Source: Pseudomonas phage Baskent_P6. Taken from it: a DNA stretch of 64,000 bases. The notes beneath the pieces are model-generated. The model worked only from the letters and a program-made list of their open reading frames with translations, was not told the DNA's origin and ran no database searches. Below, one piece after another: positions 5,486-63,424 of this stretch; within the stretch, counting starts at the first letter, position 1; each line of letters begins with the position of its first letter. The DNA lies in the sequence record PQ415074.1; one strand, written 5' to 3'. A program made the position numbers and the translations under genes.

Positions 5486-7804
5486 ATGCAGATCACTGAG
5501 AATGACCGCCAGTACATGAATGGCCTGCCACCGGCCGGCGACACGCCGCTGACCGTGGACGAGTACGCCGACATCAACTACGAAATCGAGGACCAGCCCG
5601 CGTGGCGCGCCGTCGCCGACAAGGAAATGGATTACGCGGACGGGAACCAGCTCGACACCGACCTGCTGCGTCGCCAGCAGGCACTGGGCATCCCGCCCGC
5701 GGTAGAAGACCTGATTGGCCCGGCCCTGCTGTCCCTGCAAGGCTACGAGGCCGTCACTCGCACAGACTGGCGCGTGACGCCGAACGGTGACGTGGGTGGC
5801 CAGGACGTGGCCGACGCCCTGAACTACCGGCTGAACACGGCAGAGCGCCAGTCTGGTGCCGACCGCGCATGCTCCGAAGCGTTCCGGCCGCAGATCGCGT
5901 GCGGTATCGGCTGGGTAGAAGTCAGCCGCGAGTCGGACCCGTTCAAGTTCCCGTACCGCTGCCGGCCTATCCGCCGCGACGAAATTCACTGGGACATGAA
6001 GTGCGGCGACGACTGGGAGGCCTGCCGCTTCCTGCGCCGGCAGCGCTGGCTGTCACCTGATCGCATTGCCCTGGTGTTCCCGGAGCATGCCGAGCTGATC
6101 GGCATGGTAGGTAAGTACGGCAGCACCTGGTGGGGCCAGCCCGATCTCGGAATGATGGAAGGCGGCACATCCACCGGTCTGCACAACGCATGGAACGAGG
6201 CGCGGGCCTGGACCGTGCAGGAGGACCGCTGGTACAACCCTAGCAGCAAGGAAATCTGCCTGGTGGAACTCTGGTATCGCCGCTGGGTGCAGGTCCACGT
6301 CCTGAAATCGCCCGATGGCCGAGTCGTCGAGTACGACCCGAACAACCTGGCGCACAACATCGCGCTGGCGTCCGGCCGCATTTCACCGAAGAAGGTGACG
6401 GTATCCCGCGTGCGCCGCTCCTACTGGCTCGGGCCGCACTGCCTGCACGATGGGCCAAGCCCATACACACATCGCCACTTCCCCTACGTGCCGTTCTTCG
6501 GCTTCCGCGAGGATGCCACCGGAATTCCATACGGGTACGTGCGCGGCATGAAATACGCCCAGGACAGCCTGAATAGCGGTATGTCCAAGCTCCGCTGGGG
6601 CATGAGCGTCACTCGAGTGGAGCGTACCAAGGGCGCGGTGGACATGACCGACGCACAACTACGCCGGCAGATCGCACGTCCGGATGCCGACATCGTGCTG
6701 AACGCTGAGCACTTCGCTAGCAACAGGGGCGCTCGCTTCGAGGTAAAGCGCGACTACACCCTGACCGACCAGCATTTCCAGATGCTTCAGGACAACCGCG
6801 CCACCATCGAGCGCGTAAGCAACATCACGGCCGGTTTCCAGGGGCGCAAAGGCACGGCCACCAGCGGCATCCAGGAACAGCAGCAGATCGAGCAGAGCAA
6901 CCAGTCCATTGGCCGGATCATGGACAACTTCCGCGCCGGCCGGACTCTGGTGGGCGAACTGCTGCTGGCAATGATCGTCGAGGACATCGGCCAGGAGCGC
7001 ACTGAGGTGGTTATCGAAGGCGATGCCGTGACCGCCGATCGTGTCGTGGTGCTCAACGAGCCGCAGCGCGATCCTCAGACCGGCGCCGCCTACCTGTCCA
7101 ATGATCTGCTGCGCACTCGGATCAAGGTCGCCCTCGAGGACGTTCCCAGCACCAACAGCTACCGCGGCCAGCAGCTCAATGCGATGTCCGAGGCCGTCAA
7201 GAGCATGCCGCCGCAGTACCAGGCTGCTGTCCTGCCGTTCCTGGTCAGCCTCATGGACGTGCCGTTCAAGCGCGACGTGGTGGAGGCCATCCGAGCCGTT
7301 GATCAACAGCAGACCCCGGAGCAGATCCAGCAGCAGATCGACCAGGCCGTGCAGGACGCCCTGGCCAAGGCCGGAAACGACATCAAGCTGCGCGAACTGG
7401 AGATCAAGGAGCGTAAGGCGGATAGCGAAATCAGTGGGATGAACGCCAAGGCAGTGCAGATCGGGGTGCAGGCCGCATTCAGTGCCATGCAGGCCGGCGC
7501 CCAGATTGCGCAGATGCCGATGATCGCGCCGATCGCCGACGCCGTGATGCAGAGCGCCGGATACCAGCGCCCGAACCCTGCTGGTGACGACCCGAATTAC
7601 CCCGTAGCCGACCAGACGGCGGCAATGAACATCAAGTCGCCCTACATCCAAGGGCAGGGGCCGGCAGCGGCAGAAGCTGAGGCCGAGGAAGCTCCGGTAC
7701 GCAGGAACACCAGCCCGACATATCCGCCGGTGCCGGCCGAAGCCCCGACCGGCCAGCGCGGAATAGAGACGCCGAGTACGGCTGACAACCTGCCGCAGCC
7801 CTGA
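5486..7804 (+). CDS. Portal protein
   Basis: 772 aa directly after TerL; size and position as for the P22 gp1-type portal. Confidence 0.75.
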   Translation: MQITENDRQYMNGLPPAGDTPLTVDEYADINYEIEDQPAWRAVADKEMDYADGNQLDTDLLRRQQALGIPPAVEDLIGPALLSLQGYEAVTRTDWRVTPNGDVGGQDVADALNYRLNTAERQSGADRACSEAFRPQIACGIGWVEVSRESDPFKFPYRCRPIRRDEIHWDMKCGDDWEACRFLRRQRWLSPDRIALVFPEHAELIGMVGKYGSTWWGQPDLGMMEGGTSTGLHNAWNEARAWTVQEDRWYNPSSKEICLVELWYRRWVQVHVLKSPDGRVVEYDPNNLAHNIALASGRISPKKVTVSRVRRSYWLGPHCLHDGPSPYTHRHFPYVPFFGFREDATGIPYGYVRGMKYAQDSLNSGMSKLRWGMSVTRVERTKGAVDMTDAQLRRQIARPDADIVLNAEHFASNRGARFEVKRDYTLTDQHFQMLQDNRATIERVSNITAGFQGRKGTATSGIQEQQQIEQSNQSIGRIMDNFRAGRTLVGELLLAMIVEDIGQERTEVVIEGDAVTADRVVVLNEPQRDPQTGAAYLSNDLLRTRIKVALEDVPSTNSYRGQQLNAMSEAVKSMPPQYQAAVLPFLVSLMDVPFKRDVVEAIRAVDQQQTPEQIQQQIDQAVQDALAKAGNDIKLRELEIKERKADSEISGMNAKAVQIGVQAAFSAMQAGAQIAQMPMIAPIADAVMQSAGYQRPNPAGDDPNYPVADQTAAMNIKSPYIQGQGPAAAEAEAEEAPVRRNTSPTYPPVPAEAPTGQRGIETPSTADNLPQP

Positions 7805-42726: not shown

Positions 42727-43962
42727 ATGCCGCTCACGGATACTGCTGTCCGCCAGGCAAAAGCAGAAGCTAAAGACTACACCCTCGCCGACATTGACGG
42801 CCTCTCTCTCTTCGTTTCTCACAAGGGCACCAAAAGCTGGCACTTCCGCTTTTCGTTGAATGGCCAGCAGAAGCGAGTGTCGCTTGGGACGTATCCCGAG
42901 TTGAGCCTGCGTGATGCCCGGCAGCGCCGTGACGAGGCACGTTCGTTGGTGGCCCAAGGTATCGATCCGCGGGGGCAGCATCGAGCGGACCGGAAGACGG
43001 TCAGCGTCGAGGAGACGTTTCGACACGTGGCTGAACAGTGGCTGGAGTTGAAACAGGGGCGCTGGGCGGACGATAGCCGGAAAGGCAGCGCAAACCAGGC
43101 GCGCAGAGTACTGGACAATGACCTATACCCGGCCCTGGCGAACATGAAGTTTCGCGAAATTCACCGTCGTGACCTGGCTGCGGTTGTCGGAGCCATCGAG
43201 CGCCGGGGAGCGCTGCACGTCGCGGAGAAGGCGCGGAGTTGGTTACGCCAGATCTTCCGCGTTGGGATCGCGGCCGGATTACGAGAGGACAACCCTGCCT
43301 CGGACCTGGACATTCTGGCGAAAGAACAGCCGCCGACTGAGCACAATCCGATTCTTGCGCATGATGGCGAAGAGCTTCCAGCCCTTCTTGTGAGACTGCG
43401 GTCTTACCAAGGGTCCGAGATCACAAGGATCGCCGTTCGTCTGATGCTTCTGACCGCGGTACGTACGATTGAGCTTCGAAAGGCTGCGCCGGCAGACTTC
43501 GATCTAGAAAAGGGGATATGGACTGTCCCGCCCGGAAGGGTGAAGCAATTGCGCGGCAAGGTGCGCAAGGACGGGGAAGAGGTGCCTCCGTACATCGTGC
43601 CGCTGTCGCGGCAAGCGATTGAGGAGGTCAGGCGGTTGCTGCAGAAGACGGGAAAATACCCGTTCGCGTTCGCAGGTCGAAATGATCCGACGAAGATGAT
43701 GAGCGAGAACACCATCAACCAGGCGATCAAGCGCCTTGGGTTCGATGGGCTGCTGACTGGTCATGGGTTGCGAGGGACTTTCTCCACTGCGCTGCATGAA
43801 ATGGGCTACGACACGACGTTGATCGAGGGCCAGCTTTCCCATGCCGATCCCAACAAGACGCGGGCGGCATACAACCATGCCGCGCACGTTGAGCGTCGAA
43901 GGGCGATGATGCAAGACTGGGCTGATTATCTTGATCGGTTGGAGCAGGCTGCCCCGGAGTGA
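42727..43962 (+). CDS. int: Tyrosine integrase (P4-type, DUF4102-like N-terminal arm-binding domain)
   Basis: N-terminal LTDTAVRQAK...DGLSLFVSHKGTKSWHFRF (DUF4102 type); catalytic box R...HGLRGT...ER..HA...Y near the C-terminus. Confidence 0.9.
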   Translation: MPLTDTAVRQAKAEAKDYTLADIDGLSLFVSHKGTKSWHFRFSLNGQQKRVSLGTYPELSLRDARQRRDEARSLVAQGIDPRGQHRADRKTVSVEETFRHVAEQWLELKQGRWADDSRKGSANQARRVLDNDLYPALANMKFREIHRRDLAAVVGAIERRGALHVAEKARSWLRQIFRVGIAAGLREDNPASDLDILAKEQPPTEHNPILAHDGEELPALLVRLRSYQGSEITRIAVRLMLLTAVRTIELRKAAPADFDLEKGIWTVPPGRVKQLRGKVRKDGEEVPPYIVPLSRQAIEEVRRLLQKTGKYPFAFAGRNDPTKMMSENTINQAIKRLGFDGLLTGHGLRGTFSTALHEMGYDTTLIEGQLSHADPNKTRAAYNHAAHVERRRAMMQDWADYLDRLEQAAPE

Positions 43963-49392: not shown

Positions 49393-49840
49393 GGCTGCAC
49401 CTGCTGCTGTGAGCGGTTCCAGGGATGCCGGCGCCCGGGCTTGGGCTGCTGGCGCGGGGTGATGAGGGCGTCGCGCAGGCTCATGCCGGCGGCGACGCGG
49501 CGGCGGACGGTCGTTGCGTGGACCGGGCTCTGGAAGTGCTCCACCAGCTCGGCGATGGTCCCGGTCACGCCGTCGACGGTGAAGCGTCGGCTCTCGCTCC
49601 AGCGTTCGTGCGCGCGCTCCAGCGCTGCGGCCTGCGCCGGCGTGCAGCGTCCGCGCTTCTGCTCGTTCGCACGCTGGTGGTCGGTTGAGCATCCGCGTGC
49701 TGGCCAGGTGATCTCCGGCATCAGGGTCAGCAGCTCTCGGAACTTCCAGGGGCCCATGCCGAGCGCGTGCATGGTGGCGCGCCGGGAAAGCCCGCGCGCG
49801 GCCGCGTTGCGAATGAACTGTTCGGTGTTCACGGGTTCAC
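49389..49840 (-). CDS. Hypothetical protein with C-terminal HTH-like segment; GTG start assumed
   Basis: TTVRRRVAAGMSLRDAL; start ambiguous. Confidence 0.35.
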
Positions 49841-51637
49841 CTCCTGTTGCGCGACGCTCAACCCCACCGCTACCTGCCGCACCCAGATCGGCGTATTGCT
49901 GAGCATGAAGGTTTCGCCGGCCTCGGCCAGCAGCAGCGTTGTACCCATCACGCCGGCGATGGCCTCGGCCGCGGCCGGCGGTACGGCGTTGCCGATGCGC
50001 TCGCGCCAGTCGCTGTCGCTCAGGCCGTCGAGGATCAACTGTTCTTCCGGGTCCACCAGGCTCTGCAGCGCGGCCAACTCCAGGGTGGTGAAGGGCCGGT
50101 GCCAAGTGCCGTCCAGCGACTGGATGATGCAGGTGAGCCGGTCGTTCGCCGTCGGCATGCGCGGGTCGGCGACGCTCCACCGGCCATTGTCGTGCCGCGC
50201 GCTGGCGGATACTGCGCCGGCGGACTGGTCGAACCCGACGACACCGTAGTGCCCGCCGGTCAGGTAGGCGTCGCCCTTGGTGCGATCGAGCACGCGCGGA
50301 TCAGCGATCGACAGCGCGCCGCTGGCCACCTGCTGGGAGCCGGTGACCGTGCCGGTAGCGCTTCCCCACTCGCCGACGTGCAATTTGCGGCTGCTCGCCC
50401 CTGGGTGCCAGTTGTGGTACCTGGGATCGGCAACAGCCTGGCCTCCGGAACTGGGTGAGTGCCCGCCGGTGACGGTTCCGGCGTGGCTCCCCATGCTGAC
50501 GACGCGAAACACGTTGTTGTGCCGGACGCCGCCTGGGCGCGGGTCGGCGACGCTGAATGTGCCTTGGCCTGGCATCGTTTGCCCTGGGATAGTCGGCGCT
50601 GATTCGGCCCAGCGGATCACCCCGAACTGCTGGCCGTGGTTCCAGTTTGCGGCTTGGCGGTAGCGAGGATCGGCTACCGAAAATGCGCCGTTGGTAGGGC
50701 CGGAGCGGCCGGCGATAGTGCTGGCAGTGTCGTCCCACCCATGCACCCCCATGTAGCCGGAGCGGTACTCCGGCACGATTACCAGGTCGCGCAGGTGGCC
50801 GTCCTCGATCGCCAGCTTGTTCAGGCTCCGCCAGTCGCTGCCGGCCTCTACCAAGGCCAGGCGCACCCAGGTCTTCCAGTGCAGCGATGGGATGCGGTGC
50901 ATTGGCCCCGCGGCATCGATGTCGCCCGGCAGCGGCATGCGGCCGAGGATGTCGCCGACGGCGCGCAGGCTCTTCTTCTCTGGCTCGTACAGGAAGGGGG
51001 GCACTTTTTCGACGTGCCGCGCGACAAGCAGGAAGCGCTTCCGGGACTGCGCCAGGCCGCCGAGTTCGCCGCAGTCGTGAGTGGTTTCCGCCACTGCGTA
51101 GCCGAAGCCGCCGAGCAGGCTATTGATCTGGTCCAGCAGGTGCCGGCCGCGGCTGGCAAGGCGTGGGACGTTCTCGAAGACGATCAGCGGTACCGGGTCA
51201 TCAGCCCATGCCTCGCCCATCAGCCAGATGCAGCGCAGCGTCAACTCGTTCAGCGCCTGGTACTTTGGAGTCAGGCTCATCTTCTCCGACAGCAGGCCGC
51301 TGGCGCCTTTGCAGGGCGAGCTGATGAACACGGCATCCGGCCGGCGCCCGCCGGCGGCGCGACGAATATCCTCCGGAGTCGCCTCCCGCCAACCGGCGGG
51401 CGGCTCCTTTCCATGGAAGCGGATGTATTGGTCGCGGGTGAACAGGTCCAGCAGGGTACCCGGGACACCGGCCAGGCGCTCGAAGTCGCGCAGGCCGGCC
51501 GGGTCCACGTCGATCCCGCCGAGGCAGACCCATTCAGCCTCGACGTTGCCGACCCGCGGGCGCGCCCGGTTGAAACCGGCGGCGCCGCCGCCCAGGCCGC
51601 AGCAGAAGTGGAAGTGGTACAGAGTGCGCTTGATCAT
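49829..51637 (-). CDS. DNA (cytosine-5)-methyltransferase with about 340-aa variable region holding five ADPR-containing repeats
   Basis: Motif I FCCGLGGG, IV SSPCKGAS, VI FENV, VIII QSRKR, X GNAVPP. Repeats FSVADPRY.., FSVADPRPG.., AVADPRYH.., LSIADPRVL.., WSVADPRMP.. between motifs VIII and IX (about nt 50080..50690). Confidence 0.8.
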   Translation of the reverse strand: MIKRTLYHFHFCCGLGGGAAGFNRARPRVGNVEAEWVCLGGIDVDPAGLRDFERLAGVPGTLLDLFTRDQYIRFHGKEPPAGWREATPEDIRRAAGGRRPDAVFISSPCKGASGLLSEKMSLTPKYQALNELTLRCIWLMGEAWADDPVPLIVFENVPRLASRGRHLLDQINSLLGGFGYAVAETTHDCGELGGLAQSRKRFLLVARHVEKVPPFLYEPEKKSLRAVGDILGRMPLPGDIDAAGPMHRIPSLHWKTWVRLALVEAGSDWRSLNKLAIEDGHLRDLVIVPEYRSGYMGVHGWDDTASTIAGRSGPTNGAFSVADPRYRQAANWNHGQQFGVIRWAESAPTIPGQTMPGQGTFSVADPRPGGVRHNNVFRVVSMGSHAGTVTGGHSPSSGGQAVADPRYHNWHPGASSRKLHVGEWGSATGTVTGSQQVASGALSIADPRVLDRTKGDAYLTGGHYGVVGFDQSAGAVSASARHDNGRWSVADPRMPTANDRLTCIIQSLDGTWHRPFTTLELAALQSLVDPEEQLILDGLSDSDWRERIGNAVPPAAAEAIAGVMGTTLLLAEAGETFMLSNTPIWVRQVAVGLSVAQQEVNP

Positions 51638-54264
51638 GCGGCGGGTTCCTTATGGATAATGTCGGCCTCGGCCTCGAGCAGGGCGAACAGGTCGGGCATG
51701 GCCATCTCTTCCTCGGCAGACTTGCAATAGCCGGCACCGTCCAGGAAGTAGCGGGAGTTCAGTTCGTGGGCGCGGGCTCTGCGCTTGAGCTTCAGCGCGC
51801 AGTACGGGACGGTCATGATCCCGCCGAAGGGATCGAAGACCAGGTCTCCTTCCATGGAGTACTGCACGATGGCCCGGTCGACGATGTCGAACTGCAGCGG
51901 GCACAGGTGCATTTCCTGGCCCTTGCTGTACTGCTGGGCGTTGAGCGTCCGCATGCGGGCGACGTCGGTCCATACGTCCGGGTGCCAGGACTGCGGTGGC
52001 AGCAGCATGAAGCCGGTGGGCAGCTTCCCGGTGACCTCCAGCGATTCGCCGATGCGGACGTGGTGCTCGAAGTCGTAGACGGTGGACAGGCTGTAGTCGC
52101 GGTACAGCTTGAACATCACGTCGTGCGGAATGCCTTCGAAGTCCGCTTCAGTCAGCGGACGGTTGCCGTTGCTGCGGGTGAAGCCGTGGGCGTCCAACTG
52201 CCAGCGTGCCCGGCTGTAGCCGTTGCCGCGGGTGACGGTGAGCTTCTTGTCCATGGCGAAGGGGACGATCTGGCCGTCTTCGTCGATGCACAGGGGCTTG
52301 GCCTTGACCACCGGAATGTCGCCGTAGGCGTTGGAGTTGTCGGTGGGGGGCTTGCGGAAGATCAGCAGGTACTCGGGCATGCCGACACCCATCTTGGTGC
52401 CGTCCTTGCACTGTTCCGTCCACGAGAGGCGGTAGGTCTGGGCGTTCTCGCGAACCACGTCGGTGACGATGGTCTTCATGCCCATATAGGCCCAGCCATG
52501 CTTGACGAAGGCTCGAGTCACTTCCATGTGGAAGGGGTAGACGGTCTGGAAGCCAAGGCCGGTCATTCCGCCGGGAATGATGCGATCCTTCACGTGGATG
52601 CAGGCCAGACGCCCGGGGATGGTCACGCGCAGCAGTTCCGGGATCAGATAGTCCATCTGCTCGAAGAAGTGCGCGTTGTCGTCGGTGTGGCCGAAGTCGG
52701 CGTAGTTCGGCGAGTACTCGTACTGGGTGCTGAAGGGGATGCTGGTGATGGTCAAGCCGACGCTGTTGCTTTCCATGCGGCAGGTTTCGAGCACGGTGTC
52801 GTTGTTGACGATGGTGTAGTCCTTGCCCTTGATCTCGACGCGCTCCACGCCCATGGAGCGGGTGAGGGTCTGTGCCATGGCGGCCACGGACAGGCCGTAC
52901 TGCTTGATGATCTCGGTCATGCGCTGAACCATGGTGTTGTGCTGCTGCCACTTCCGTTCGAGTTGGCGGCGGATGTCGCGCTCGGCCTCGGTATAGATCA
53001 GGTCGATGCGCACACGGCCTGTCTGCAGGAATCGGTGCAGGCGGTGAATGGACTGGATGAAGTCGTTGAACTTGAAGCCGATGCCCAGGTAGATGGCCCA
53101 CGAGCAGTGGCGCTGGAAGTTGCAGCCGCTGCCTGCGATCACTGGTTTGGCAGCCAGTTCCTGGAACTCGCCGTCGCTGAACTGGACAATCGCGCGCTCG
53201 CGCTCCTCCAGATCCTGGGCGCCGTAGACGCTGATGGCGGTGGGGATAGCGGCCTCGATCGCGTGGCGTTCCGCCTCGAGGTCATGCCAGATGATCCGGT
53301 GAGCATCTGGAGCCTCGGCCCGGATCTCCATCAGTTTGGCGATCCGGGCAGGAAGGCTCTCGCGCTTCTCTGCGGCGGCGTCCTGCACGCCAATGGCGGT
53401 GTTGCGAAGCAGGCGGCCCTGGCCGTTACGCTCATGGCCAGCGTGCGAGTGGTCGGACGGTACTTCGTGCCAGCGGATGTCCAGTTCCGGTAGCGCGTAG
53501 CCTTCGTCGCTGAACCCGAGGTCGCTGGGGCGCTGAACGAAGATCGCCCAGGATGCCACCCACATCCAGAACTCGCCCTCTTTGTGGGCATGGATGGTGA
53601 GTTGGTCGGCCTTCTCAGAGTTGCGTTTGAAGAACCTGGTCTTGGCCTGGCCGACATCCATCACGCCGAGGAAGGCCGAGTAAGCCAGTAGCTCGATGTA
53701 TTCGTTCGGGCTTGGCGTGGCAGTGGCCACGTACCGGTACCGGACGCCATCGCCGCGGACGCCGGCGGCGCGATCGTCACCAGCGAACAGAGCCATGAAC
53801 TCGCGGAACGTCTTGCTGCCGCCGAAGCCGCGAAGGCAACTGGCTTCGTCCAGGCTTGCCACGCTGAACCGGCGAGGGTCGAGCTTGCCGTCGCGGACGG
53901 TCTCGTAATTGGTCAGGTAGATGGTGGCGGGGTCGTCTACCTCGTCGAAACTGCGGATGAACCGGACGGTGATGCCGAGCATCGCGGCGTCGCGGTAGAA
54001 CTCCTGGCGCACACCCAGCGGAATGGTGATGAGAGCGTAGCCGCCGGCTAGGTCGCGGGTGACGCGCACCACCTCAAGCTGCATTACCGACTTGCCCAGG
54101 CCGAAGGCCGCGAAACAGGCCGCGCGGCCTTGGCGCACCAGCCAGGTGGCGATGGCGCGCTGGTGCGGCTTGAGCAGGGGGTTGAAGGCCGAGGGCTCCA
54201 CTTCGAAGCCTTTCGGCTCGGCGAGGCGGACCTTCGCTCGCAAGAAGTCTTCATAGGCGGTCAT
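51634..54264 (-). CDS. SF2 helicase fused to a beta-class N6/N4 DNA methyltransferase domain
   Basis: Helicase motif I AAFGLGKS, II LDEAS, III TATPSPN, VI QSIHRLHRF (nt about 54120..52980). C-terminal MTase motif IFRKPPTD then FDPFGGIMTVPYCA (nt about 52350..51800). ATGA-coupled to the C5-MTase gene. Confidence 0.75.
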   Translation of the reverse strand: MTAYEDFLRAKVRLAEPKGFEVEPSAFNPLLKPHQRAIATWLVRQGRAACFAAFGLGKSVMQLEVVRVTRDLAGGYALITIPLGVRQEFYRDAAMLGITVRFIRSFDEVDDPATIYLTNYETVRDGKLDPRRFSVASLDEASCLRGFGGSKTFREFMALFAGDDRAAGVRGDGVRYRYVATATPSPNEYIELLAYSAFLGVMDVGQAKTRFFKRNSEKADQLTIHAHKEGEFWMWVASWAIFVQRPSDLGFSDEGYALPELDIRWHEVPSDHSHAGHERNGQGRLLRNTAIGVQDAAAEKRESLPARIAKLMEIRAEAPDAHRIIWHDLEAERHAIEAAIPTAISVYGAQDLEERERAIVQFSDGEFQELAAKPVIAGSGCNFQRHCSWAIYLGIGFKFNDFIQSIHRLHRFLQTGRVRIDLIYTEAERDIRRQLERKWQQHNTMVQRMTEIIKQYGLSVAAMAQTLTRSMGVERVEIKGKDYTIVNNDTVLETCRMESNSVGLTITSIPFSTQYEYSPNYADFGHTDDNAHFFEQMDYLIPELLRVTIPGRLACIHVKDRIIPGGMTGLGFQTVYPFHMEVTRAFVKHGWAYMGMKTIVTDVVRENAQTYRLSWTEQCKDGTKMGVGMPEYLLIFRKPPTDNSNAYGDIPVVKAKPLCIDEDGQIVPFAMDKKLTVTRGNGYSRARWQLDAHGFTRSNGNRPLTEADFEGIPHDVMFKLYRDYSLSTVYDFEHHVRIGESLEVTGKLPTGFMLLPPQSWHPDVWTDVARMRTLNAQQYSKGQEMHLCPLQFDIVDRAIVQYSMEGDLVFDPFGGIMTVPYCALKLKRRARAHELNSRYFLDGAGYCKSAEEEMAMPDLFALLEAEADIIHKEPAA

Positions 54265-54532
54265 GCTGTTTCCTTGAGGAACGGCACGCACCGGACGCCG
54301 CCCTGCCTGACAGGGCGGCCCACGAGGCATGGTTGAATCGCCCACAGGGCGGCGTCCGGTGCGTGCTGGAAGAGAAAGCGCCCCGGGTGGGGCGCTGTAT
54401 CGAGGGTCAGGTCGCAGCCTGGAGCTGGTGACCACGACCTAGAGGAATAAACTGAGCTTGAAATGCAGATCGATTGCCCTAAAACTCGATGGTGAAGTCA
54501 CGGTGCTATTACTTGACCAACTAGGGGGATCT

Positions 54533-54847
54533 ATGCCTATCAAGATGAATCTGTCTGGCCTGAAGCGTCTGCAGCAAAACCTCAAACAACTCGATGGCAC
54601 GCATCAAGTGCCGTTTAGCGAGATCATGAGTCCCAGCTTTATTTCGTCTAACAGCAAGTTTGCGAATTTCGACGAGTTTGCTCGTGGTGCCGGTTATAAG
54701 GTTGAAACTGCGGAAGATCTACGGGCGATTCCAGACGAGCCATGGGACGCTTATGTCCGTAGTGAGACTCCTTTCGAGAGTTGGGCAGAAATGCTCAAGG
54801 CCGGCATAGTCGCGCATGCCAAGCGCTCACTTCAAAAGGGGTTGTAA
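54533..54847 (+). CDS. Hypothetical 104-aa protein on a low-GC moron, opposite in orientation to the early operon
   Basis: RBS aactagggggatct before ATG 54533. Local GC about 48%. Followed by hairpin at 54900..54926. Confidence 0.5.
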   Translation: MPIKMNLSGLKRLQQNLKQLDGTHQVPFSEIMSPSFISSNSKFANFDEFARGAGYKVETAEDLRAIPDEPWDAYVRSETPFESWAEMLKAGIVAHAKRSLQKGL

Positions 54848-54899
54848 CTCGCCGTCTCTACTGAAACCGAATGCTGCACGTGTGGCCTTTCTCCGCCCA

Positions 54900-54926
54900 G
54901 AACGCTCGGATGTGCCCGAGCGTTTC
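54900..54926. terminator. Hairpin GAACGCTCGG-atgtg-CCGAGCGTTtC between the convergent moron and rdgC genes
   Basis: Inverted repeat read directly; no strong T-run, so only a putative bidirectional terminator. Confidence 0.35.
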
Positions 54927-54952
54927 GTTCTGCATCGTCGAGGGGGCTGACT

Positions 54953-56173
54953 TCACGACAGAACCTCGCGAGATCCGTCTCCCTTCATCGGCCCGACGAT
55001 ATCCAGCAATTCCATTTCCTCGACCAGGCGGGCCGCGCGGTTGTAGCCGATCTTGAGTTTGCGTTGGATGGCGGAGATCGAAGCGCGGCGCGTCTCGTGG
55101 ACGAAGCGGATAGCCTCCTTCAGCAGCGGGTCGTCACCGGGCCCGTTGGCCTGGGGGATATGGAGGGTCGCGGTGATACCGTCGCGCATCCCTAGCGCCT
55201 TGGTTACGTCGATGCCGGCGCCAGGCGCTGGCTCGGGCTCATCGTACGCACCGTCGATTCCCTGCGGGAACTCTTCGCCGCCCAAGGCCTCCAGCAGTTG
55301 CGGTATGAACTCGCGGAAGGTGAGCATCATCAGGACGAAGCTGGCGTCGAGCTGGCCGGCGGCATCGTCGCCGCCGTCCTTCTCAGCCTGCTCCTGCAGC
55401 AGGTCGTCGAAGCGCAGGCGCTTGATCGCCAGCTTGGTGTCGAGCACGAAGCTGAGCTTGTCCGACCAGGCCAGGGCCACCTGGGTGACCAGCTTCCCGG
55501 AGGACAGGTGTAACTGCATTTCCTCGCTGGTCATGTCCTGGCGGGTGGCCACGACCTTGCCGCCGTCCTCGTGGGTGTCGGCGAGTACCGCGCTGTCCAG
55601 CACGTGGAAGTCGCCGCCGGCGGCCTGGTCCTTCATCCAGTCGGTGAGGGTTGCACTGGGCGCGACCTTCACGCTGAGCGGGCGTACCGGCAGCGAGCCC
55701 AGGGCTTCGCGCAGGGTGGACAGTAGGTCCTCGGCCTTCTTTGCGCTGTTGGTGTCGATCAGCACCAGGCCTTGCTCAAGGTCCAGCGCGGCGAACGTGC
55801 TGGACTTGCGAATGAAAGCCCGTGGCAGCAGCGTCTGGACGATCTCGTCCTTGAGCTGGTCGCGCTCCTTCTTGAACACCTTGCGCATCTGGTCGGTTTC
55901 GATTTGCTCGACCTTCTCGGCCAGTTCGTCGCGCACTACGCTGCCGGGCAGCAGGCGCTCCTGCTTTCGGGTGGAGATGAGCAGGAAGCCGCGGCTGGCG
56001 TGCACCAGCGGTGCGTTCGGGCCCTTGCCGAACGGAGCGGCGAAGCCGTAGGTGGTCAGTTCCTGGCTTTCGCAGGGGCGTGCCGGCTTGCTGGCCAGGG
56101 CCTGCTCCAGCGCCGCGGCGTCGATTTGCAGGTCTTGGGTGAGGCGGTAGATTTGCAGGTTGCGGAACCACAT
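54953..56173 (-). CDS. rdgC: RdgC recombination-associated protein fused to a C-terminal FtsK-gamma (KOPS-binding winged-helix) domain
   Basis: N-terminus [11 protein letters not shown]... and length track E. coli RdgC over about 300 aa. Extra C-terminal about 60 aa [58 protein letters not shown] closely matches the FtsK gamma domain (nt about 54953..55135). Confidence 0.8.
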
Positions 56174-56199: not shown

Positions 56200-56697
56200 T
56201 TACACGAGACGCCAGAGCAGGCGATAGGGGTCATCGAACGGAATGTCGTCGTCGTAGCTGTCGTAGTCGGTTGCCGGTTGCGGCTGGTGGTGAGTGGTCG
56301 GCCGCGGTGGCGGCTCGCGGCCAGGGCCACGCGACTGGCCTGCCTGCTCAGGCTTGCCGCCGAGCAGTTGCATGTTGCCGTTGATGTCCACCACTACCTC
56401 GGTGCTGTAGTGGTCCTGGCCGTCCTGGCCCTGCCACTTGCGGGTGCGTAGGCTGCCTTCGATGTAGACCTGGGAGCCCTTTCGCAGGTATTGCGCTGCG
56501 ATTTCGGCCAGCCGGCCAAAGAGCACGACCCGGTGCCACTCGGTGCGCTCCTGCTGCTGGCCGGTCTGCTTGTCTTTCCAGCTTTCGCTAGTGGCCAGGC
56601 TGAGGGACGTAACTGCCTTCCCGCTGGGGGTAGATCTTGCGTCTGGATCCTGGCCCAGATGGCCGACCAGGATTACCTTGTTCACTCCGCGTGCCAT
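56200..56697 (-). CDS. ssb: Single-stranded DNA-binding protein
   Basis: OB-fold N-terminus [29 protein letters not shown]...; acidic C-terminal tail ending DDDIPF. Confidence 0.9.
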
Positions 56698-56700
56698 GGC

Positions 56701-57306
56701 TCAGGCCTCCGCCTCAGCCGGCGGCACCGAACTGGCCGGCGCCACATCGGCTCCCTGCAAAGCGAAGTAGATGCGGGCGCAAGCTTGGGCGTCCGGCATC
56801 GCGCGGTGAGCCTCCACCAGGTCCTCCCCGGTGAAGTGCTTGTATGCCTCGGCCAAGGTCGGCAGCTTGTTGCGGGGAAGCGCGACCTGTGCGCGGGAGC
56901 GATAGCAGGTGCAGAACTTCTCACCCGATTCCTTGAAGGCGTTGGCCGCATCCTCGTCCTGGTAGCGCATCAGCGCGATGCGAGTGATACGGTCGTCGAA
57001 GCTGATGTTGTGCGCCGCGCGGCGGGCTGCGCGGCCGTTGATCGCAAGAAAGCCCTCCAGAGCCTCGGCCTCGCTGATGCCAACATCCATCGCCTGTTCG
57101 TGGCTGATGCCGTGGATCGCGGTCATTTCGGGGGTGATTTCCCAGCCGTTGGGTCGCACGATCGCCTCAAAGCGATCGATGGTGTTGCCGGCGGCATCGC
57201 AGAGCAGAGCGGCAACTTCCACGATGTGGGGCTGGCACGGGTCTTCACTGGGCAACTTCCACTCGGGAATACCCGTCGTTTCGAAGTCGAAAATGTTGGT
57301 GAGCAT
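56701..57306 (-). CDS. DnaQ-like 3'-5' exonuclease (DEDDh)
   Basis: Exo I FDFETTG, Exo III HRAMPDAQA. Confidence 0.8.
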   Translation of the reverse strand: MLTNIFDFETTGIPEWKLPSEDPCQPHIVEVAALLCDAAGNTIDRFEAIVRPNGWEITPEMTAIHGISHEQAMDVGISEAEALEGFLAINGRAARRAAHNISFDDRITRIALMRYQDEDAANAFKESGEKFCTCYRSRAQVALPRNKLPTLAEAYKHFTGEDLVEAHRAMPDAQACARIYFALQGADVAPASSVPPAEAEA

Positions 57307-57435: not shown

Positions 57436-58452
57436 TCAGGCTGCTTTCGCGGGTGACTTCTCGACGATCACGCCCGGCAGATTCAGCGTTTGGCCCTTGC
57501 TGTTGGCCAGGCTGTCCAGTGCCGGCTGGTCGACAACGAGCAAGTCCTCGGTGGCCAGGCCTTCGGCGATGGCGGCGATGAACGCGGTTTTATCGACGAC
57601 GCGGGCGCGCCACTGGGTAGCGCTGGGCTCTGCTGCCTTGCCGGCGGGCTTGATCTGGGCGGGCGCTGGTGCAACCTCGGCCTTCGGCGCCTCCGGCTCG
57701 ACAGCGACGGGCGTGTCCTGCTCGGCGAGCTGCTGGCGCGCGGCGGCAAGCTCCTGCTGCTGGCGCGCCAGTTCTTCGCGTTGGCGTTGCATTTCCTCTT
57801 GCTGCCGGCGCATTTCCGCCTGTTGCTCCTCCATGCGGCGGCGCATTTCGGCTTGCTGGGCTTCCAACTCCTGCCGCTGGCGCTCCGCTTGCTCGAAGGC
57901 CAGGCGGTCGGTCAGCATTTGGGTCAGTTCGTCCATGGCCGTCTGCTGTGCGGCTTGGGCTTCCTTCGTCAAGTCGTAGAAGTCGTGTGCTGTGTCGATT
58001 TCGCCACAGCGGTCGATCATCGCGGCAATCTCGTCGCTGGTCTTGCCGCGTACCTGGGCCGGCATCCCTTTGATGGCGTCGACCTTCGACAGCAGGCGTG
58101 CGATCCGTTCCTGGCGCTCGCGTTCGACGCGATCGTCGACCTCCTTCTTGGCGGCCTTCATCGGATCTTCCAACGTCACCAGTGCGGCGGTGATCCGCTT
58201 CGCCTCGGCGTCGATGATCTGGCCTGCCTCGATGTAAGGCGCCTTTTCACGCTTGCGAGCGGCTTCCAGGCTGGTGCGCAGTGTGGTCAATTCCTTGATA
58301 CCGGCCTTGATGAACTCGTAGCCATCGGCGGTATTGGCGTCCGGCAGCGTCGCGTACTTCTCGCGAAGTTTTGCCAGGGCGGCGTTGGTTGCGTTGTACT
58401 CGGCGACCTCGACGGTACCGTTTTCCAGGTCAACATTTTTCAGGATGGTCAT
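57436..58452 (-). CDS. Coiled-coil protein of the recombination module (DUF1351-like position)
   Basis: Start MTILKNVDLENG chosen inside track ORF 57436..58518; long QAEMRRRMEEQQAEMRRQQEEMQRQREEL coiled coil. Confidence 0.5.
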   Translation of the reverse strand: MTILKNVDLENGTVEVAEYNATNAALAKLREKYATLPDANTADGYEFIKAGIKELTTLRTSLEAARKREKAPYIEAGQIIDAEAKRITAALVTLEDPMKAAKKEVDDRVERERQERIARLLSKVDAIKGMPAQVRGKTSDEIAAMIDRCGEIDTAHDFYDLTKEAQAAQQTAMDELTQMLTDRLAFEQAERQRQELEAQQAEMRRRMEEQQAEMRRQQEEMQRQREELARQQQELAAARQQLAEQDTPVAVEPEAPKAEVAPAPAQIKPAGKAAEPSATQWRARVVDKTAFIAAIAEGLATEDLLVVDQPALDSLANSKGQTLNLPGVIVEKSPAKAA

Positions 58453-58456
58453 GGTG

Positions 58457-59212
58457 TCATTCCTCGGGGCTGGTAGGAGCGGGGGAAAGCTGGCGCAGGC
58501 GCTCATCGGCGGCTTCATTCACGCGCAGCTCAATCTCTGAGGGGTTGAAGTTGACGACTGGCGCTTTGGCGCGGGCCTTCTCGGCGACTTGCTTACGCAT
58601 TAACTCCAGGGCGCGGGAGTTCGGTGCCGCGGCGATCGCGTCGAGTTGTGCGCGAAGCCAGGTCTTGAATTCGTCCTTGGCTTCGTCCAGGGCTGTCTCG
58701 GGATCGCCGGCATCGGCCAGGCGCTCTTTCAGCTTCAGGCCTTCGACATAGGTCGTGTCGTCGAACATGCCCATGTGAATGTCGGCGCTGAACCCGAGGA
58801 GTGACAGACACTTCTTGATGGCGTCGGTGAGTGACTTCTTGCCGTAGTCGTGGTCGGTCTTGAAGCCCCACTCGGTCTTGTAGACGTAGGGGGTGTGCCC
58901 GTATTGACGGGCGTGATTGATCGTCCCGTCGTGGCGGTACCAGAGTTCGATGTACAGGGTGTGGGTCTTGTCGTGGCAGATGACCGCACCGTTCTTATCG
59001 AGGTGCGGTGCGCCTTCATCGAAGCGCTCTACCAAGACCTTCCAGCCCCAGCCCTTGCCGACGGGGCCGAATAGCTCAGTCGCACGACGGACGATGTACA
59101 AGCCGTTGATGGACGTCATGTCCTGACCGTTGAGCTTCGCCTGCCTTGTGTACCTGGTGTCCGTTTCTTTCACTTGGTCCCAGATAGCCATGTTGCTATT
59201 CAAGTTCGTCAT
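58457..59212 (-). CDS. Rad52-family single-strand annealing protein (Sak-like)
   Basis: KKSLTDAIKKCLSLLGFSADIHMG resembles the K.A.SDA.KRA...FG.G Rad52-family signature; sits beside exonuclease and SSB. Confidence 0.5.
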   Translation of the reverse strand: MTNLNSNMAIWDQVKETDTRYTRQAKLNGQDMTSINGLYIVRRATELFGPVGKGWGWKVLVERFDEGAPHLDKNGAVICHDKTHTLYIELWYRHDGTINHARQYGHTPYVYKTEWGFKTDHDYGKKSLTDAIKKCLSLLGFSADIHMGMFDDTTYVEGLKLKERLADAGDPETALDEAKDEFKTWLRAQLDAIAAAPNSRALELMRKQVAEKARAKAPVVNFNPSEIELRVNEAADERLRQLSPAPTSPEE

Positions 59213-62560: not shown

Positions 62561-63346
62561 TCAGTGCTTCCTACGTCTGAGTACCGACCACCAGAATACC
62601 CAGCCCATGATGCTGAGGTTGTTCTCGCGCATCTGGTCCTTGGTGTACTCCTCGTCTGGGTATTCGTCACGGTTAAAACTGCGTAGGCGGATGCCACCAC
62701 CAGGCAATCGGTAGACGAACTTCACCCGTAGCATGTCATCGTGTTTCAACGCATAAATCTCGCCATCGATTATCGTATGGGCGGATAGGTCAACCCCGAT
62801 GATGGCGCCATCGGCAATCAGAGGCTCCATGCTGTTGCCACTGACATTCACGCAGACCGAATGTTTTGGATCCACCCCCGACTCGCGCAGACCAGCCTTC
62901 GCGAACCTGATTTTTTGCTTGGCCTGCTCACGGTCGGGATAGCGACCGTCCCCCGCGGCGATTTGGATCTCGTCGAAGTACGGTATTTCAACCTCATCCG
63001 GGTCGAGCGGGTCCCCCACCTCGAAACTGGACATGGGCGTAAGTTCGCCCTCTGTCTCCGCTTTAGGCGCCGGCCGGAGAGTCTTCGCCATATCCGTTAT
63101 TTCGTCCGCTAGGCGCGGACTGAACTCCCGAACATGAACCTGGAGAATTTCTGCGAATGCCGCCGCTGCCTGGGCGTTCAAAGGGTTCACGCCATTCAGG
63201 TAGTGGCTAACGGAGCTTTGGTTGATCCCAAGGAGGTGGGCGAGCTTCTCCTGCGTTAGACCGAGGTCACGCTTTCTGCTGTTGAAGATGGCCTTCAGTT
63301 GAAGGCACTCGTCTTTTCTGTCTGGTGGAAGAGGTTTTTTGCTCAT
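62561..63346 (-). CDS. cI: CI-like repressor (N-terminal HTH, C-terminal S24 LexA-like autopeptidase domain)
   Basis: HTH LGLTQEKLAHLLGINQSSVSHYLNG; C-terminal GNSMEPLIADGAIIGVD...K (Ser/Lys dyad context). Start MSKKPLPP inside track ORF 62561..63382. Confidence 0.85.
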   Translation of the reverse strand: MSKKPLPPDRKDECLQLKAIFNSRKRDLGLTQEKLAHLLGINQSSVSHYLNGVNPLNAQAAAAFAEILQVHVREFSPRLADEITDMAKTLRPAPKAETEGELTPMSSFEVGDPLDPDEVEIPYFDEIQIAAGDGRYPDREQAKQKIRFAKAGLRESGVDPKHSVCVNVSGNSMEPLIADGAIIGVDLSAHTIIDGEIYALKHDDMLRVKFVYRLPGGGIRLRSFNRDEYPDEEYTKDQMRENNLSIMGWVFWWSVLRRRKH

Positions 63347-63362
63347 CTTCGAATCGTATTCC

Positions 63363-63424
63363 CACAGGTAATATTTCAGCAAATGCCTATAGCATTGAAA
63401 TGTTTAAATGCCACAGGTAATATT
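63363..63424. promoter_or_regulatory. OR-like operators: two exact copies of CACAGGTAATATT (63363..63375, 63412..63424) in the cI/cro intergenic region
   Basis: tcccacaggtaatatttc and tgccacaggtaatattct read directly. Confidence 0.6.

What the first reader, a model, noticed from the sequence alone, without database searches (positions are those of the whole stretch)
54953..56173. RdgC fused to an FtsK-gamma (KOPS-binding) domain
The first about 300 aa align convincingly by eye with RdgC (MWFRNL..YRL start, conserved central and C-terminal blocks). The gene then continues for about 100 aa ending in [52 protein letters not shown], an almost canonical FtsK gamma winged-helix. That domain normally reads KOPS polarity motifs and contacts XerD. 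A recombination-modulating RecA antagonist carrying a KOPS-reading module is not an architecture I know of. It could target the protein to the chromosome terminus/dif region or to oriented sequences during phage recombination.
Basis: partly seen in the sequence, partly recalled or inferred. Interest (0 to 1): 0.7.

Follow-up and report, generated by a model that had tools for sequence, protein, structure and literature searches.

The report
Phage RdgC with an FtsK-gamma tail
A temperate Pseudomonas phage encodes, as one intact gene, the DNA-ring protein RdgC (a RecA antagonist) tethered to a copy of the small DNA-reading domain of the host's FtsK; this fusion is real and widespread on phages and plasmids, was not found in the searched literature, and is often mis-annotated.

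Summary
Window 54953-56173 (-) is one uninterrupted 406-aa ORF: RdgC (residues 1-300, Pfam E 8e-108, about 81% identical to P. aeruginosa RdgC), a roughly 40-aa disordered linker, and an FtsK gamma winged helix (347-405, E 1e-24, 67% identical to P. aeruginosa FtsK gamma). The window is an F116-like (Hollowayvirus) temperate phage, and the gene lies in its early recombination operon after SSB.

The architecture is not unique. It occurs in 19 F116-like phage records, many Vibrio phages, large Pseudomonas plasmids, 69 of the 120 best database clusters and 34 of the 150 best 50%-identity representatives. The tail is modular. It is swapped between RdgC alleles, gained or lost at least 20 times on the RdgC tree, and replaced in H66/LKA5 by an NdpA gene that still carries a gamma relic.

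The KOPS/XerD-contact surface is nearly invariant, including three residues needed for KOPS reading but not for XerD activation. KOPS motifs are neither enriched nor specifically skewed in the phage, and there is no dif-like site. The best reading is a tethered KOPS-type DNA reader that helps load the RdgC ring. That mechanism is inferred, not shown. No paper describing the fusion was found.

The parts
54953..56173 (-). Complete rdgC-gamma fusion gene (406 codons plus TGA)
   Evidence: Single ORF; both Pfam domains; annotated as one CDS in phage PA8
56181..56185 (-). AGGAG ribosome-binding site, 7 nt upstream of the ATG and 15 nt after the SSB stop codon
   Evidence: Sequence read; an RBS is annotated at the same place in H66
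55256..56173 (-). RdgC domain (residues 1-306): ring-forming, dsDNA-binding RecA antagonist fold
   Evidence: 99% identical to the unfused RdgC of phage H66. DNA homology with H66 ends at 55261
55136..55255 (-). Linker (residues 307-346), acidic and Pro/Gly-rich, predicted disordered; contains the semi-conserved element [21 protein letters not shown]
   Evidence: pLDDT 36-67. Length 16-60 aa and hypervariable across the family. Motif present in 27 of 70 fused proteins
54959..55135 (-). FtsK gamma winged-helix domain (residues 347-405)
   Evidence: 100% identical to the tail of P0004, whose RdgC part is only 68% identical
55010..55066 (-). [19 protein letters not shown] (residues 370-388): end of helix 2, loop and recognition helix 3; the KOPS-contact and XerD-contact surface
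   Evidence: [10 protein letters not shown] is identical to P. aeruginosa FtsK. Q370, N378, R379 are invariant; R371, Y377, A380, A381, R382, E385, E388 are at least 94% conserved in 69 fused homologues. Residue roles from PMC5052618 and PMC2680272
54879..54995 (-). Recombination scar shared with H66/LKA5: last 14 codons of gamma plus the start of the downstream LexA-like gene. In H66/LKA5 the same DNA forms the C-terminus of NdpA
56200..56697 (-). SSB gene immediately upstream in the same operon (context)
   Evidence: Pfam SSB E 4.7e-40. SSB-RdgC adjacency is conserved in PA8, H66, LKA5 and L007-L009; in L010/L011 one 125-aa ORF intervenes
56701..57306 (-). RNase_T / DnaQ-like 3'-5' exonuclease gene (context)
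   Evidence: Pfam
57436..59212 (-). DUF1351 protein and phage exonuclease genes, the upstream part of the early recombination operon (context)

Best explanation
This is one real gene of a temperate F116-like Pseudomonas phage. It encodes a mobile-element variant of RdgC. RdgC is a dimeric ring that encircles duplex DNA and antagonises RecA. Each subunit here carries, on a flexible tether of about 40 residues, an FtsK-gamma winged helix captured from the host lineage. I propose that gamma does for RdgC what it does for FtsK. It recognises KOPS-type G-rich octamers (GGGNAGGG, GGGCAGGG in Pseudomonas) and so raises the local concentration of the ring on duplex DNA and nucleates its loading. RdgC's dimeric scaffold, which coats DNA, would supply the multivalency that single gamma domains need. 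The gene is expressed from the early operon with the phage's own exonucleases and SSB. The loaded RdgC would keep host RecA off phage and host duplex DNA. That would favour the phage's own recombination pathway and damp RecA-dependent responses such as cleavage of its S24-type repressor and SOS functions. Shown here: the fusion, the domain identities, conservation of the recognition surface, modularity of the tail, and mobile-element context. Inferred: KOPS binding, assisted loading, and the RecA-related benefit.
For: Fusion and domains. Mobile-element context in every locus examined: F116-like phages, a lambdoid prophage with ERF/YqaJ, an 81-kb integrase-bearing element, other prophages, and large plasmids. 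Chromosomal Pseudomonas RdgC is 306 aa and unfused. Selection on the gamma surface: in 69 fused homologues whose gamma domains are only 47-78% identical to the window's and whose linkers are 14-60% identical, Q370, N378, R379, G400 and R402 are invariant, and R371, Y377, A380, A381, R382, E385 and E388 are at least 94% conserved. The same holds in 92 sequences that include 34-57%-identity representatives. R382, E385 and E388 correspond to E. coli R1300, E1303 and E1306. Mutating those abolishes KOPS recognition but leaves XerCD-dif activation intact (PMC2680272), so their conservation points to DNA reading and not only XerD contact. Monomeric gamma binds KOPS poorly, while covalent trimers bind well (PMC3384302), so a multimerising scaffold makes sense. 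RdgC is a ring with a 30-angstrom pore that binds dsDNA non-specifically (PMC1885664). Its dimer-interface residues F120 and Q212 are invariant in the fused family. Modularity under selection: an identical tail sits on 68%-divergent RdgC alleles; at least 20 gain/loss events on the RdgC tree against 36 for random labels; both halves track the host clade in Pseudomonas and Vibrio phages. Precedent for gamma reuse as a phage DNA-recognition module: the small terminase of Bacillus phage Sam46 (PMC8190038).
Against: No binding or loading data exist. KOPS motifs are at chance frequency in the phage (11 against 12.75 expected) and their strand bias is not motif-specific, so nothing marks the phage genome as a special target. 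The XerD-contact residues are a subset of the DNA-contact residues (PMC5052618), so conservation cannot exclude XerD binding. R1300, E1303 and E1306 might also be conserved for structural reasons. The tail is dispensable in close relatives: H66 and Atpa001 have a 98-99% identical RdgC without it. An RdgC dimer supplies two gamma domains, whereas three bind one KOPS in the FtsK complex. Two of the eight pore residues shown to matter for DNA binding are changed (A198, V208). Unfused H66 shares the window's RdgC half at 99% identity and presumably both substitutions, so this probably says nothing about compensation by gamma.
Confidence: 0.42

Rival explanations
1. XerD engagement. The gamma tail contacts host XerD, as FtsK gamma does. 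It would either trigger XerCD recombination at the host dif independently of FtsK, or recruit XerCD to DNA held by RdgC.
For: The ten residues [10 protein letters not shown] are identical to P. aeruginosa FtsK. They cover the minimal nonapeptide that activates XerD and the critical R1289 equivalent (PMC5052618). Isolated gamma, or gamma fused to other proteins, activates XerCD-dif without the motor (PMC3130261). Gamma tracks the host clade, as expected if it must fit host XerD.
Against: There is no dif-like site in the window at up to 3 mismatches, and the phage has its own integrase. Free gamma works only at high concentration and yields topologically complex products. Residues needed only for KOPS reading are equally conserved. 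The R1292 and G1294 equivalents are somewhat relaxed in the fused family (76% and 89%), though that comparison is biased by how the sequences were retrieved. No benefit to the phage is evident.
Confidence: 0.2
2. Generic DNA-affinity booster. The winged helix simply adds non-specific duplex binding to a phage RdgC whose pore is weakened, and KOPS specificity has no functional role.
For: Pore residues are relaxed in the fused family: R208 retained in 19/69 and R211 in 28/69, K146 basic in 34/69. The tail is frequently gained, lost or replaced by another DNA-binding protein gene, NdpA. KOPS are not enriched in the phage.
Against: The recognition helix is held nearly invariant, including acidic E385 and E388, which would not help non-specific binding. 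Unfused H66 RdgC is 99% identical over this half, so the weakened pore is probably not tied to having the tail. Many simpler DNA-binding modules exist, yet gamma recurs with RdgC in distant lineages.
Confidence: 0.17
3. KOPS decoy. RdgC-gamma occupies KOPS sites and blocks or misdirects host FtsK loading, disturbing late chromosome segregation or division during infection or plasmid establishment.
For: The KOPS-contact residues match those of host FtsK. RdgC would hold gamma stably on DNA. Early phage operons often carry host-takeover functions (general knowledge).
Against: KOPS-blind ftsK has no growth-rate defect in E. coli (PMC2680272), so blocking KOPS reading alone should have little effect. 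FtsK strips proteins from DNA (abstract of PMC2800217). No direct evidence exists.
Confidence: 0.08
4. Artefact or passenger. The reading frame is really two genes, or gamma is a decaying remnant of captured host DNA.
For: RefSeq often annotates only a 76-83-codon 'DNA translocase FtsK' ORF at such loci. Relatives exist without the tail.
Against: The full ORF is intact in the window and in all 7 re-translated loci. 16 independent phage genomes carry it at 97-99% identity. The gamma functional surface is under strong purifying selection across very diverged members. The internal Met used by the short gene calls is not conserved.
Confidence: 0.02

Closest known systems
Chromosomal RdgC (P. aeruginosa PA3263, PDB 2OWY; E. 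coli RdgC, PDB 2OWL)
   Same: Full-length, ungapped match over residues 1-306 (E 8.5e-156, about 81% identity). It passes the NCBIfam equivalog cutoff. Dimer-interface residues F120 and Q212, and 6 of 8 pore residues implicated in DNA binding, are retained.
   Different: It carries a 100-residue C-terminal extension (linker plus gamma). It is encoded on a phage in an early recombination operon, not at the chromosomal locus. Pore residues R198 and R208 are replaced by A and V.
FtsK gamma subdomain (P. aeruginosa, PDB 2VE8/2VE9; E. coli, PDB 2J5P and 5DCF)
   Same: 67% identical to host FtsK gamma. Same three-helix-plus-wing topology in the AF2 model. All KOPS-blind positions (R1300, E1303, E1306 equivalents) and XerD-contact positions are present.
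   Different: It is not attached to an FtsK alpha/beta translocase motor or membrane anchor. It is presented by a dimeric ring rather than a hexameric pump, so it cannot direct translocation.
Unfused RdgC followed by NdpA in phages H66, LKA5 and F116 (Hollowayvirus)
   Same: Same operon and position. H66's RdgC is 99% identical over residues 1-300. The downstream LexA-like gene is shared.
   Different: There RdgC stops at residue 306 and a separate NA37/NdpA nucleoid-associated protein gene follows. Its last 14 codons are a relic of the gamma wing, which indicates that the fused form is ancestral at this locus.
Gamma-domain small terminase of Bacillus phages Sam46 and Sam112 (PMC8190038)
   Same: It is a phage protein that has captured a host-like FtsK gamma domain and joined it to a different DNA-handling protein. 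The authors also infer host origin and KOPS-like site recognition.
   Different: The partner is a terminase small subunit, gamma is N-terminal, and the host is a Firmicute. The proposed role is packaging-site recognition, not recombination control.
Lambda RexA (RdgC-like fold; PMC11077077)
   Same: It is a phage-encoded protein with an RdgC-like structure and non-specific DNA binding, in a temperate phage (abstract; comment in PMC12315714).
   Different: RexA is expressed from the lysogenic transcript, is not detectably similar in sequence here, and has no gamma domain. I did not test structural similarity to it.

Membership tests
RdgC (PF04381 / NCBIfam NF001461) | Full-length match to the family profile above the curated cutoff | tested here: met
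   Pfam 360.7 bits (cutoff 25) over 1-298/298. NF001461 equivalog 540 bits (cutoff 470). 2owy E 8.5e-156
RdgC (PF04381 / NCBIfam NF001461) | Dimer-interface residues that hold the ring together (F120 in interface A; R211 and Q212 in interface B; PMC1885664) | tested here: met
   The window has F120, R211 and Q212. F120 and Q212 are invariant in 69 fused and 52 unfused homologues
RdgC (PF04381 / NCBIfam NF001461) | Basic residues lining the pore that are needed for dsDNA binding (R4, K70, R81, R122, K146, R198, R208, R252) | tested here: inconclusive
   6 of 8 are kept; positions 198 and 208 are A and V. Unfused H66 RdgC is 99% identical over this half and presumably shares them
RdgC (PF04381 / NCBIfam NF001461) | Ring-shaped dimer, dsDNA binding and inhibition of RecA strand exchange | not testable with these tools
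   Needs biochemistry. The AF2 monomer model is confident (pLDDT above 90)
FtsK gamma domain (PF09397) | Profile match above the gathering score | tested here: met
   86.1 bits (cutoff 30.6), residues 347-405 over profile 3-61/63. 2ve8 E 4.1e-21
FtsK gamma domain (PF09397) | Winged-helix topology: three helices followed by a beta wing | tested here: met
   AF2 helices 351-361, 366-373 and 377-389 plus wing strands, pLDDT about 89
FtsK gamma domain (PF09397) | KOPS-recognition residues (E. coli R1300, E1303, E1306; PMC2680272) | tested here: met
   R382, E385 and E388 are present; 97%, 97% and 94% conserved in 69 fused homologues
FtsK gamma domain (PF09397) | XerD-contact residues (E. coli Q1288, R1289, R1292, I1293, G1294, N1296; PMC5052618) | tested here: met
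   Q370, R371, K374, I375, G376 and N378 are identical to P. aeruginosa FtsK
FtsK gamma domain (PF09397) | Actual binding to GGGNAGGG DNA and/or XerD | not testable with these tools
   Needs EMSA or interaction assays
FtsK/SpoIIIE DNA translocase (the name RefSeq gives many copies) | RecA-fold alpha/beta motor domain with P-loop (FtsK_SpoIIIE) and N-terminal membrane anchor | tested here: not met
   There is no such Pfam or NCBIfam domain. Only the last 59 residues match the FtsK model NF007615 (51 bits against a cutoff of 1566). The protein is not an FtsK translocase
KOPS-guided system (polarised target motifs on the replicon) | Over-representation and motif-specific strand skew of GGGNAGGG on the element's own DNA | tested here: not met
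   11 found against 12.75 expected. 10:1 strand bias against 262:80 for 55 control octamers, p = 0.23
Xer-dependent mobile element (IMEX-like) | A dif-like XerCD site on the element | tested here: not met
   No match to the dif core at up to 3 mismatches. The phage has its own tyrosine integrase at 42727-43962

The most novel reading that the evidence does not exclude
RdgC-gamma may be a mobile-element device that reuses the host's chromosome-polarity code. On this reading, KOPS reading by two tethered gamma domains directs sequence-guided loading of a RecA-blocking ring, or alternatively recruits or activates host XerD at RdgC-bound DNA. Phages and plasmids would thereby link control of homologous recombination to the FtsK/KOPS/XerCD chromosome-maintenance system. 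The evidence does not exclude this. The full KOPS/XerD surface is under strong selection, and the fusion has been assembled or exchanged repeatedly in distant gammaproteobacterial elements.
Probability: 0.2. Interest if true: 0.75.

Novelty: new variant of a known kind. Interest (0 to 1): 0.5.

Why it matters
RdgC is one of the less understood RecA modulators, and its role on phages and plasmids is essentially unstudied. FtsK gamma is a textbook example of a domain that reads chromosome polarity. This fusion is naturally widespread and repeatedly reshuffled. It gives a direct handle on two questions: how a closed RdgC ring gets onto DNA, and whether KOPS reading is used by anything other than FtsK. 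The conserved 'KOPS-blind' positions allow clean separation-of-function experiments. In practice, the family is systematically mis-annotated, either as plain RdgC or as an 80-aa 'DNA translocase FtsK' fragment. That hides it from comparative studies and could mislead anyone counting FtsK genes on plasmids and prophages.

Tried and rejected
1. KOPS targeting of the phage genome. GGGNAGGG is not enriched. Its striking 10:1 strand bias disappeared against a control of 55 same-composition octamers.

2. A dif-like XerCD site in the window. None at up to 3 mismatches.

3. Split genes. 64-79-aa gamma-only proteins (95-97% identical for P0121-P0123, 75% for P0126) suggested a stand-alone gamma. Re-translation showed the full fused ORF intact in all five loci (L007-L011) and on two plasmids (L012, L013), so these are truncated gene calls.

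4. Compensation hypothesis (gamma makes up for a weakened RdgC pore). Pore residues are relaxed in the fused family, but unfused H66 RdgC is 99% identical to the window's RdgC half and presumably carries the same A198/V208, so this is inconclusive.

5. Relaxation of XerD-only contacts in fused gamma relative to FtsK gamma. There is a small effect at two positions, but both samples are biased by word-based retrieval, so this is inconclusive.

6. Internal translation start giving free gamma. The Met is not conserved.

7. Literature. Searches found no description of the fusion. The ShosTA paper mentions RdgC and XerD only as co-purifying proteins. 'RdgC histones' are an operon association, not a fusion with RdgC proper.

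8. I did not run a fold search, because sequence matches to solved structures were already decisive.
Full report
**1.

Window 54953-56173 on the minus strand is one open reading frame of 406 codons with an ATG start and no internal stop. An AGGAG ribosome-binding site lies 7 nt upstream, and the start is 26 nt after the stop of an SSB gene.

- **RdgC.** Pfam places RdgC on residues 1-300 (E 7.8e-108, whole profile). NCBIfam's RdgC equivalog model is passed at 540 bits against a cutoff of 470.
- **Gamma.** Pfam places FtsK_gamma on residues 347-405 (E 1.3e-24, 86 bits against a cutoff of 30.6).
- **Solved structures.** The N-terminal 306 residues align without gaps to P. aeruginosa RdgC (2OWY, E 8.5e-156). 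Residues 343-405 align to the P. aeruginosa FtsK gamma domain crystallised with KOPS DNA (2VE8/2VE9, E 4e-21, 42/63 identical by my count).
- **Predicted structure.** An AlphaFold2 model built on 65 family members gives two confident domains: pLDDT about 90-96 for 1-300, and about 89 for 350-400 with three helices and a wing. A low-confidence linker (306-345) joins them.

There is no FtsK motor domain, so the protein is not a translocase.

**2. What the element is**

The window is an F116-like (Hollowayvirus) temperate phage of P. aeruginosa, 99.4% identical over this region to phages such as vB_Pae_CF24a and 97% to PA8. It has its own tyrosine integrase (42727-43962) and a CI-type S24 repressor (62561-63382).

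The fusion gene lies in the leftward early operon. The gene order is exonuclease, DUF1351 protein, RNase_T exonuclease, SSB, RdgC-gamma, then DNA methylases.

The same 406-codon gene is present at 97-99% identity in 16 phage records (15 at 99.3%, CF63a at 97.3%) and at about 73% in three more. It is annotated as one CDS in PA8.

**3. The architecture is common, not singular**

- In the 5.8-billion-protein collection, 69 of the 120 best clusters carry both PF04381 and PF09397. They are 375-425 aa long and mostly from Pseudomonas (lengths).
- In an exhaustive HMMER search of 1.84 billion 50%-identity representatives, 35 of the best 150 are at least 360 aa. Of these, 34 have both domains, with a mean column identity of only 27%.
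- Among phage records, gamma-like domains occur in 376. In Vibrio phages of 83, 60 and 40 kb and in a Pararheinheimera phage, the hit lies inside a gene annotated only as RdgC. One representative comes from Spongiibacter.
- Thirty-three plasmid records, large Pseudomonas plasmids among those listed, also carry the fusion.

Every context I inspected is a mobile element:

- F116-like phages;
- a lambdoid prophage with ERF and YqaJ;
- an 81-kb integrase-bearing element that also carries NA37 and a RecA-dependent nuclease;
- other prophages;
- plasmids of 192 and 199 kb.

Chromosomal Pseudomonas RdgC is 306 aa and unfused. I found no paper that mentions the fusion.

**4. The tail is a mobile module under selection**

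- **Chimera.** The window's RdgC part is 99% identical to the unfused RdgC of phage H66 but only 68% identical to cluster P0004. Its linker and gamma are 95% and 100% identical to P0004. The same tail therefore sits on diverged RdgC alleles.
- **Relic.** DNA homology with H66 stops at the H66 RdgC stop codon (window 55261) and resumes at 54995. In H66 and LKA5 a separate NdpA (NA37) gene occupies the gap. Its NA37 domain ends at residue 325 of 351, and the protein ends in [13 protein letters not shown]. The DNA for that tail is nearly identical to the last codons of the window's gamma wing. A free-standing NA37 protein elsewhere lacks this tail. The fused state is therefore ancestral at this locus, and the NdpA cassette replaced the linker and most of gamma.
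- **Repeated gain and loss.** On a neighbour-joining tree of RdgC domains (154 taxa, 41 fused), at least 20 fused/unfused transitions are needed (observed 24, bootstrap range 20-28). Randomly assigned labels need 36 on average.
- **Host tracking.** Both halves follow the host clade:

| Protein | RdgC half, bits vs P. aeruginosa / E. coli | Gamma, bits vs P. aeruginosa / E. coli |
|---|---|---|
| Window | 522 / 255 | 78.7 / 55.4 |
| Vibrio phage K478b | 218 / 299 | 52-56 / 59-64 |

The K478b wing loop also resembles the E. coli type. This fits repeated capture from, or gene conversion with, host genes.

**5. What is conserved**

Across 69 fused homologues, linkers are 14-60% identical to the window's and 16-60 residues long. 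The gamma surface is held almost fixed:

- Q370, N378, R379, G400 and R402 are invariant.
- R371, Y377, A380, A381, R382, E385 and E388 are at least 94% conserved.

Keller et al. (PMC5052618) show that XerD is contacted by E. coli Q1288, R1289, R1292, I1293, G1294 and N1296. The nonapeptide RQFRIGYNR suffices for activation. These contacts are a subset of the KOPS-DNA contacts, so one gamma cannot bind both at once. The window's [10 protein letters not shown] is identical to host FtsK.

The useful discriminator comes from Sivanathan et al. (PMC2680272). R1300A, E1303A and the R1300A/E1303A/E1306A 'blind' mutant lose KOPS recognition yet still support XerCD-dif recombination. Their equivalents here (R382, E385, E388) are 94-97% conserved. 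That points to selection for DNA reading itself.

Monomeric gamma binds KOPS poorly, while covalent trimers bind well (PMC3384302). Attachment to a multimeric scaffold on DNA is therefore functionally sensible. In the RdgC half, the ring-interface residues F120 and Q212 are invariant, and 6 of the 8 pore residues needed for DNA binding are kept (PMC1885664).

**6.

- **KOPS.** GGGNAGGG occurs 11 times in 64 kb against 12.75 expected. Ten of the 11 are on the + strand, which looked promising. But 55 control octamers of the same composition are biased 262:80 to the same strand, so the KOPS bias is not specific (p = 0.23).
- **dif.** No dif-like site exists at up to 3 mismatches, and the phage integrates with its own integrase.

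Nothing therefore supports targeting to the terminus or dif, or oriented motifs on the phage genome. If gamma reads KOPS, its targets are ordinary KOPS on host, phage or plasmid DNA.

**7. Most likely mechanism (inferred, confidence about 0.4)**

RdgC is a closed dimeric ring that must get around duplex DNA. In FtsK, gamma-KOPS binding is what nucleates assembly of a ring on DNA. I propose the same logic here. Two gamma domains on tethers of about 40 residues capture KOPS-type sites, concentrate the protein on duplex DNA and assist ring loading or retention.

The protein is made early, together with SSB and the phage's own exonucleases. The loaded ring would keep host RecA off duplex DNA. That would favour phage-directed recombination and limit RecA-dependent responses, including cleavage of the phage's S24 repressor. 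The benefit is inference from the known RdgC activity and the operon context, not something shown here.

Rivals:

- XerD engagement (0.2). The contact peptide is identical to the host's, and free or fused gamma can activate XerCD. But there is no substrate site on the phage, and the KOPS-only residues are equally conserved.
- A non-specific DNA-affinity boost (0.17).
- A KOPS decoy that blocks FtsK (0.08). KOPS-blind ftsK has no growth-rate defect.
- An artefact or passenger domain (0.02).

**8. Comparison with known systems, and verdict**

The N-terminal part is a member of the RdgC family and the C-terminal part is a member of the FtsK gamma family. The protein is not an FtsK translocase, although RefSeq repeatedly labels a truncated 76-83-codon ORF at these loci 'DNA translocase FtsK' while leaving the RdgC portion uncalled. 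I re-translated seven such loci and all are intact fusions.

The nearest documented analogue of gamma reuse is the gamma-domain small terminase of Bacillus phages Sam46 and Sam112 (PMC8190038).

I rate this a new variant of a known kind. Both domains are familiar. The combination is widespread but apparently undescribed, its biology is untested, and it offers clean separation-of-function experiments. Interest is moderate (0.5).

Noticed in passing
window 54396-54956: The 69-aa LexA_DNA_bind-like gene that follows rdgC-gamma in PA8, H66 and LKA5 is cut to 32 codons here (54858-54956, minus strand). Window 54396-54882 has no counterpart in PA8 or H66. It carries a + strand ORF (54458-54847, 129 aa) that matches only the C-terminal quarter of phrog_2211, so it looks like a remnant of a larger inserted gene.
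   Followed up: partly
L007-L011 (gene at 6001-6240) and L012 7904-8155, L013 6949-7179: RefSeq/PGAP annotates only the last 76-83 codons of intact RdgC-gamma ORFs as 'DNA translocase FtsK' and leaves about 900 nt of RdgC coding sequence without a listed protein. This is a systematic mis-annotation on P. aeruginosa prophages and Pseudomonas plasmids.
   Followed up: yes
L002 4961-5003 (H66) and L014 about 4466-4509 (LKA5); window 54953-54995: The NdpA (NA37) proteins of H66 and LKA5 end in a 14-residue relic of the FtsK-gamma wing ([13 protein letters not shown]). This shows that an NdpA cassette replaced the linker and gamma of an ancestral fusion.
   Followed up: yes
window 1-64000: All G-rich octamers of composition G6A plus one free position are about 3.3-fold more frequent on the + strand across the window. 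Cumulative GC skew rises almost monotonically from about 16 kb to 64 kb, although AT skew and gene orientation flip near 42-44 kb. The cause (replication or packaging asymmetry) is unexplained.
   Followed up: no
window 55160-55222 (residues 318-338 of the fusion): A semi-conserved linker element, GIDVTxxLGxxxG[IVL]TATLHxP, is present in 27 of 70 fused proteins. AF2 gives it a weak beta pair (321-322 with 336-337, pLDDT 55-67). It could be a docking motif; its function is unknown.
   Followed up: partly
window 51634-54435 and 49829-51637 (minus strand): Downstream of the fusion lie a 933-codon ORF with an N6_N4 methylase domain (annotated as an SNF2-family helicase in relatives) and a 602-aa C5-cytosine methylase. 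In other phages with the fusion this slot holds different methylase or PAPS-reductase genes, so it looks like a variable anti-restriction region.
   Followed up: no
L005 and L006 (81-82 kb Pseudomonas elements): In these integrase-bearing elements, one deposited as a plasmid, the fusion gene sits a few kb from an NA37/NdpA gene and a RecA-dependent nuclease (PF16786, Ref-like). This is another association between mobile-element RdgC and RecA-related functions.
   Followed up: no
phage collection; PHROGs 22882, 6576, 13700, 6152, 4212: FtsK-gamma modules occur in 376 phage records, fused to many partners: mycobacteriophage and Gordonia FtsK-like translocases, a small terminase, and small stand-alone proteins. 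Most of the matching PHROG families have unknown function.
   Followed up: partly
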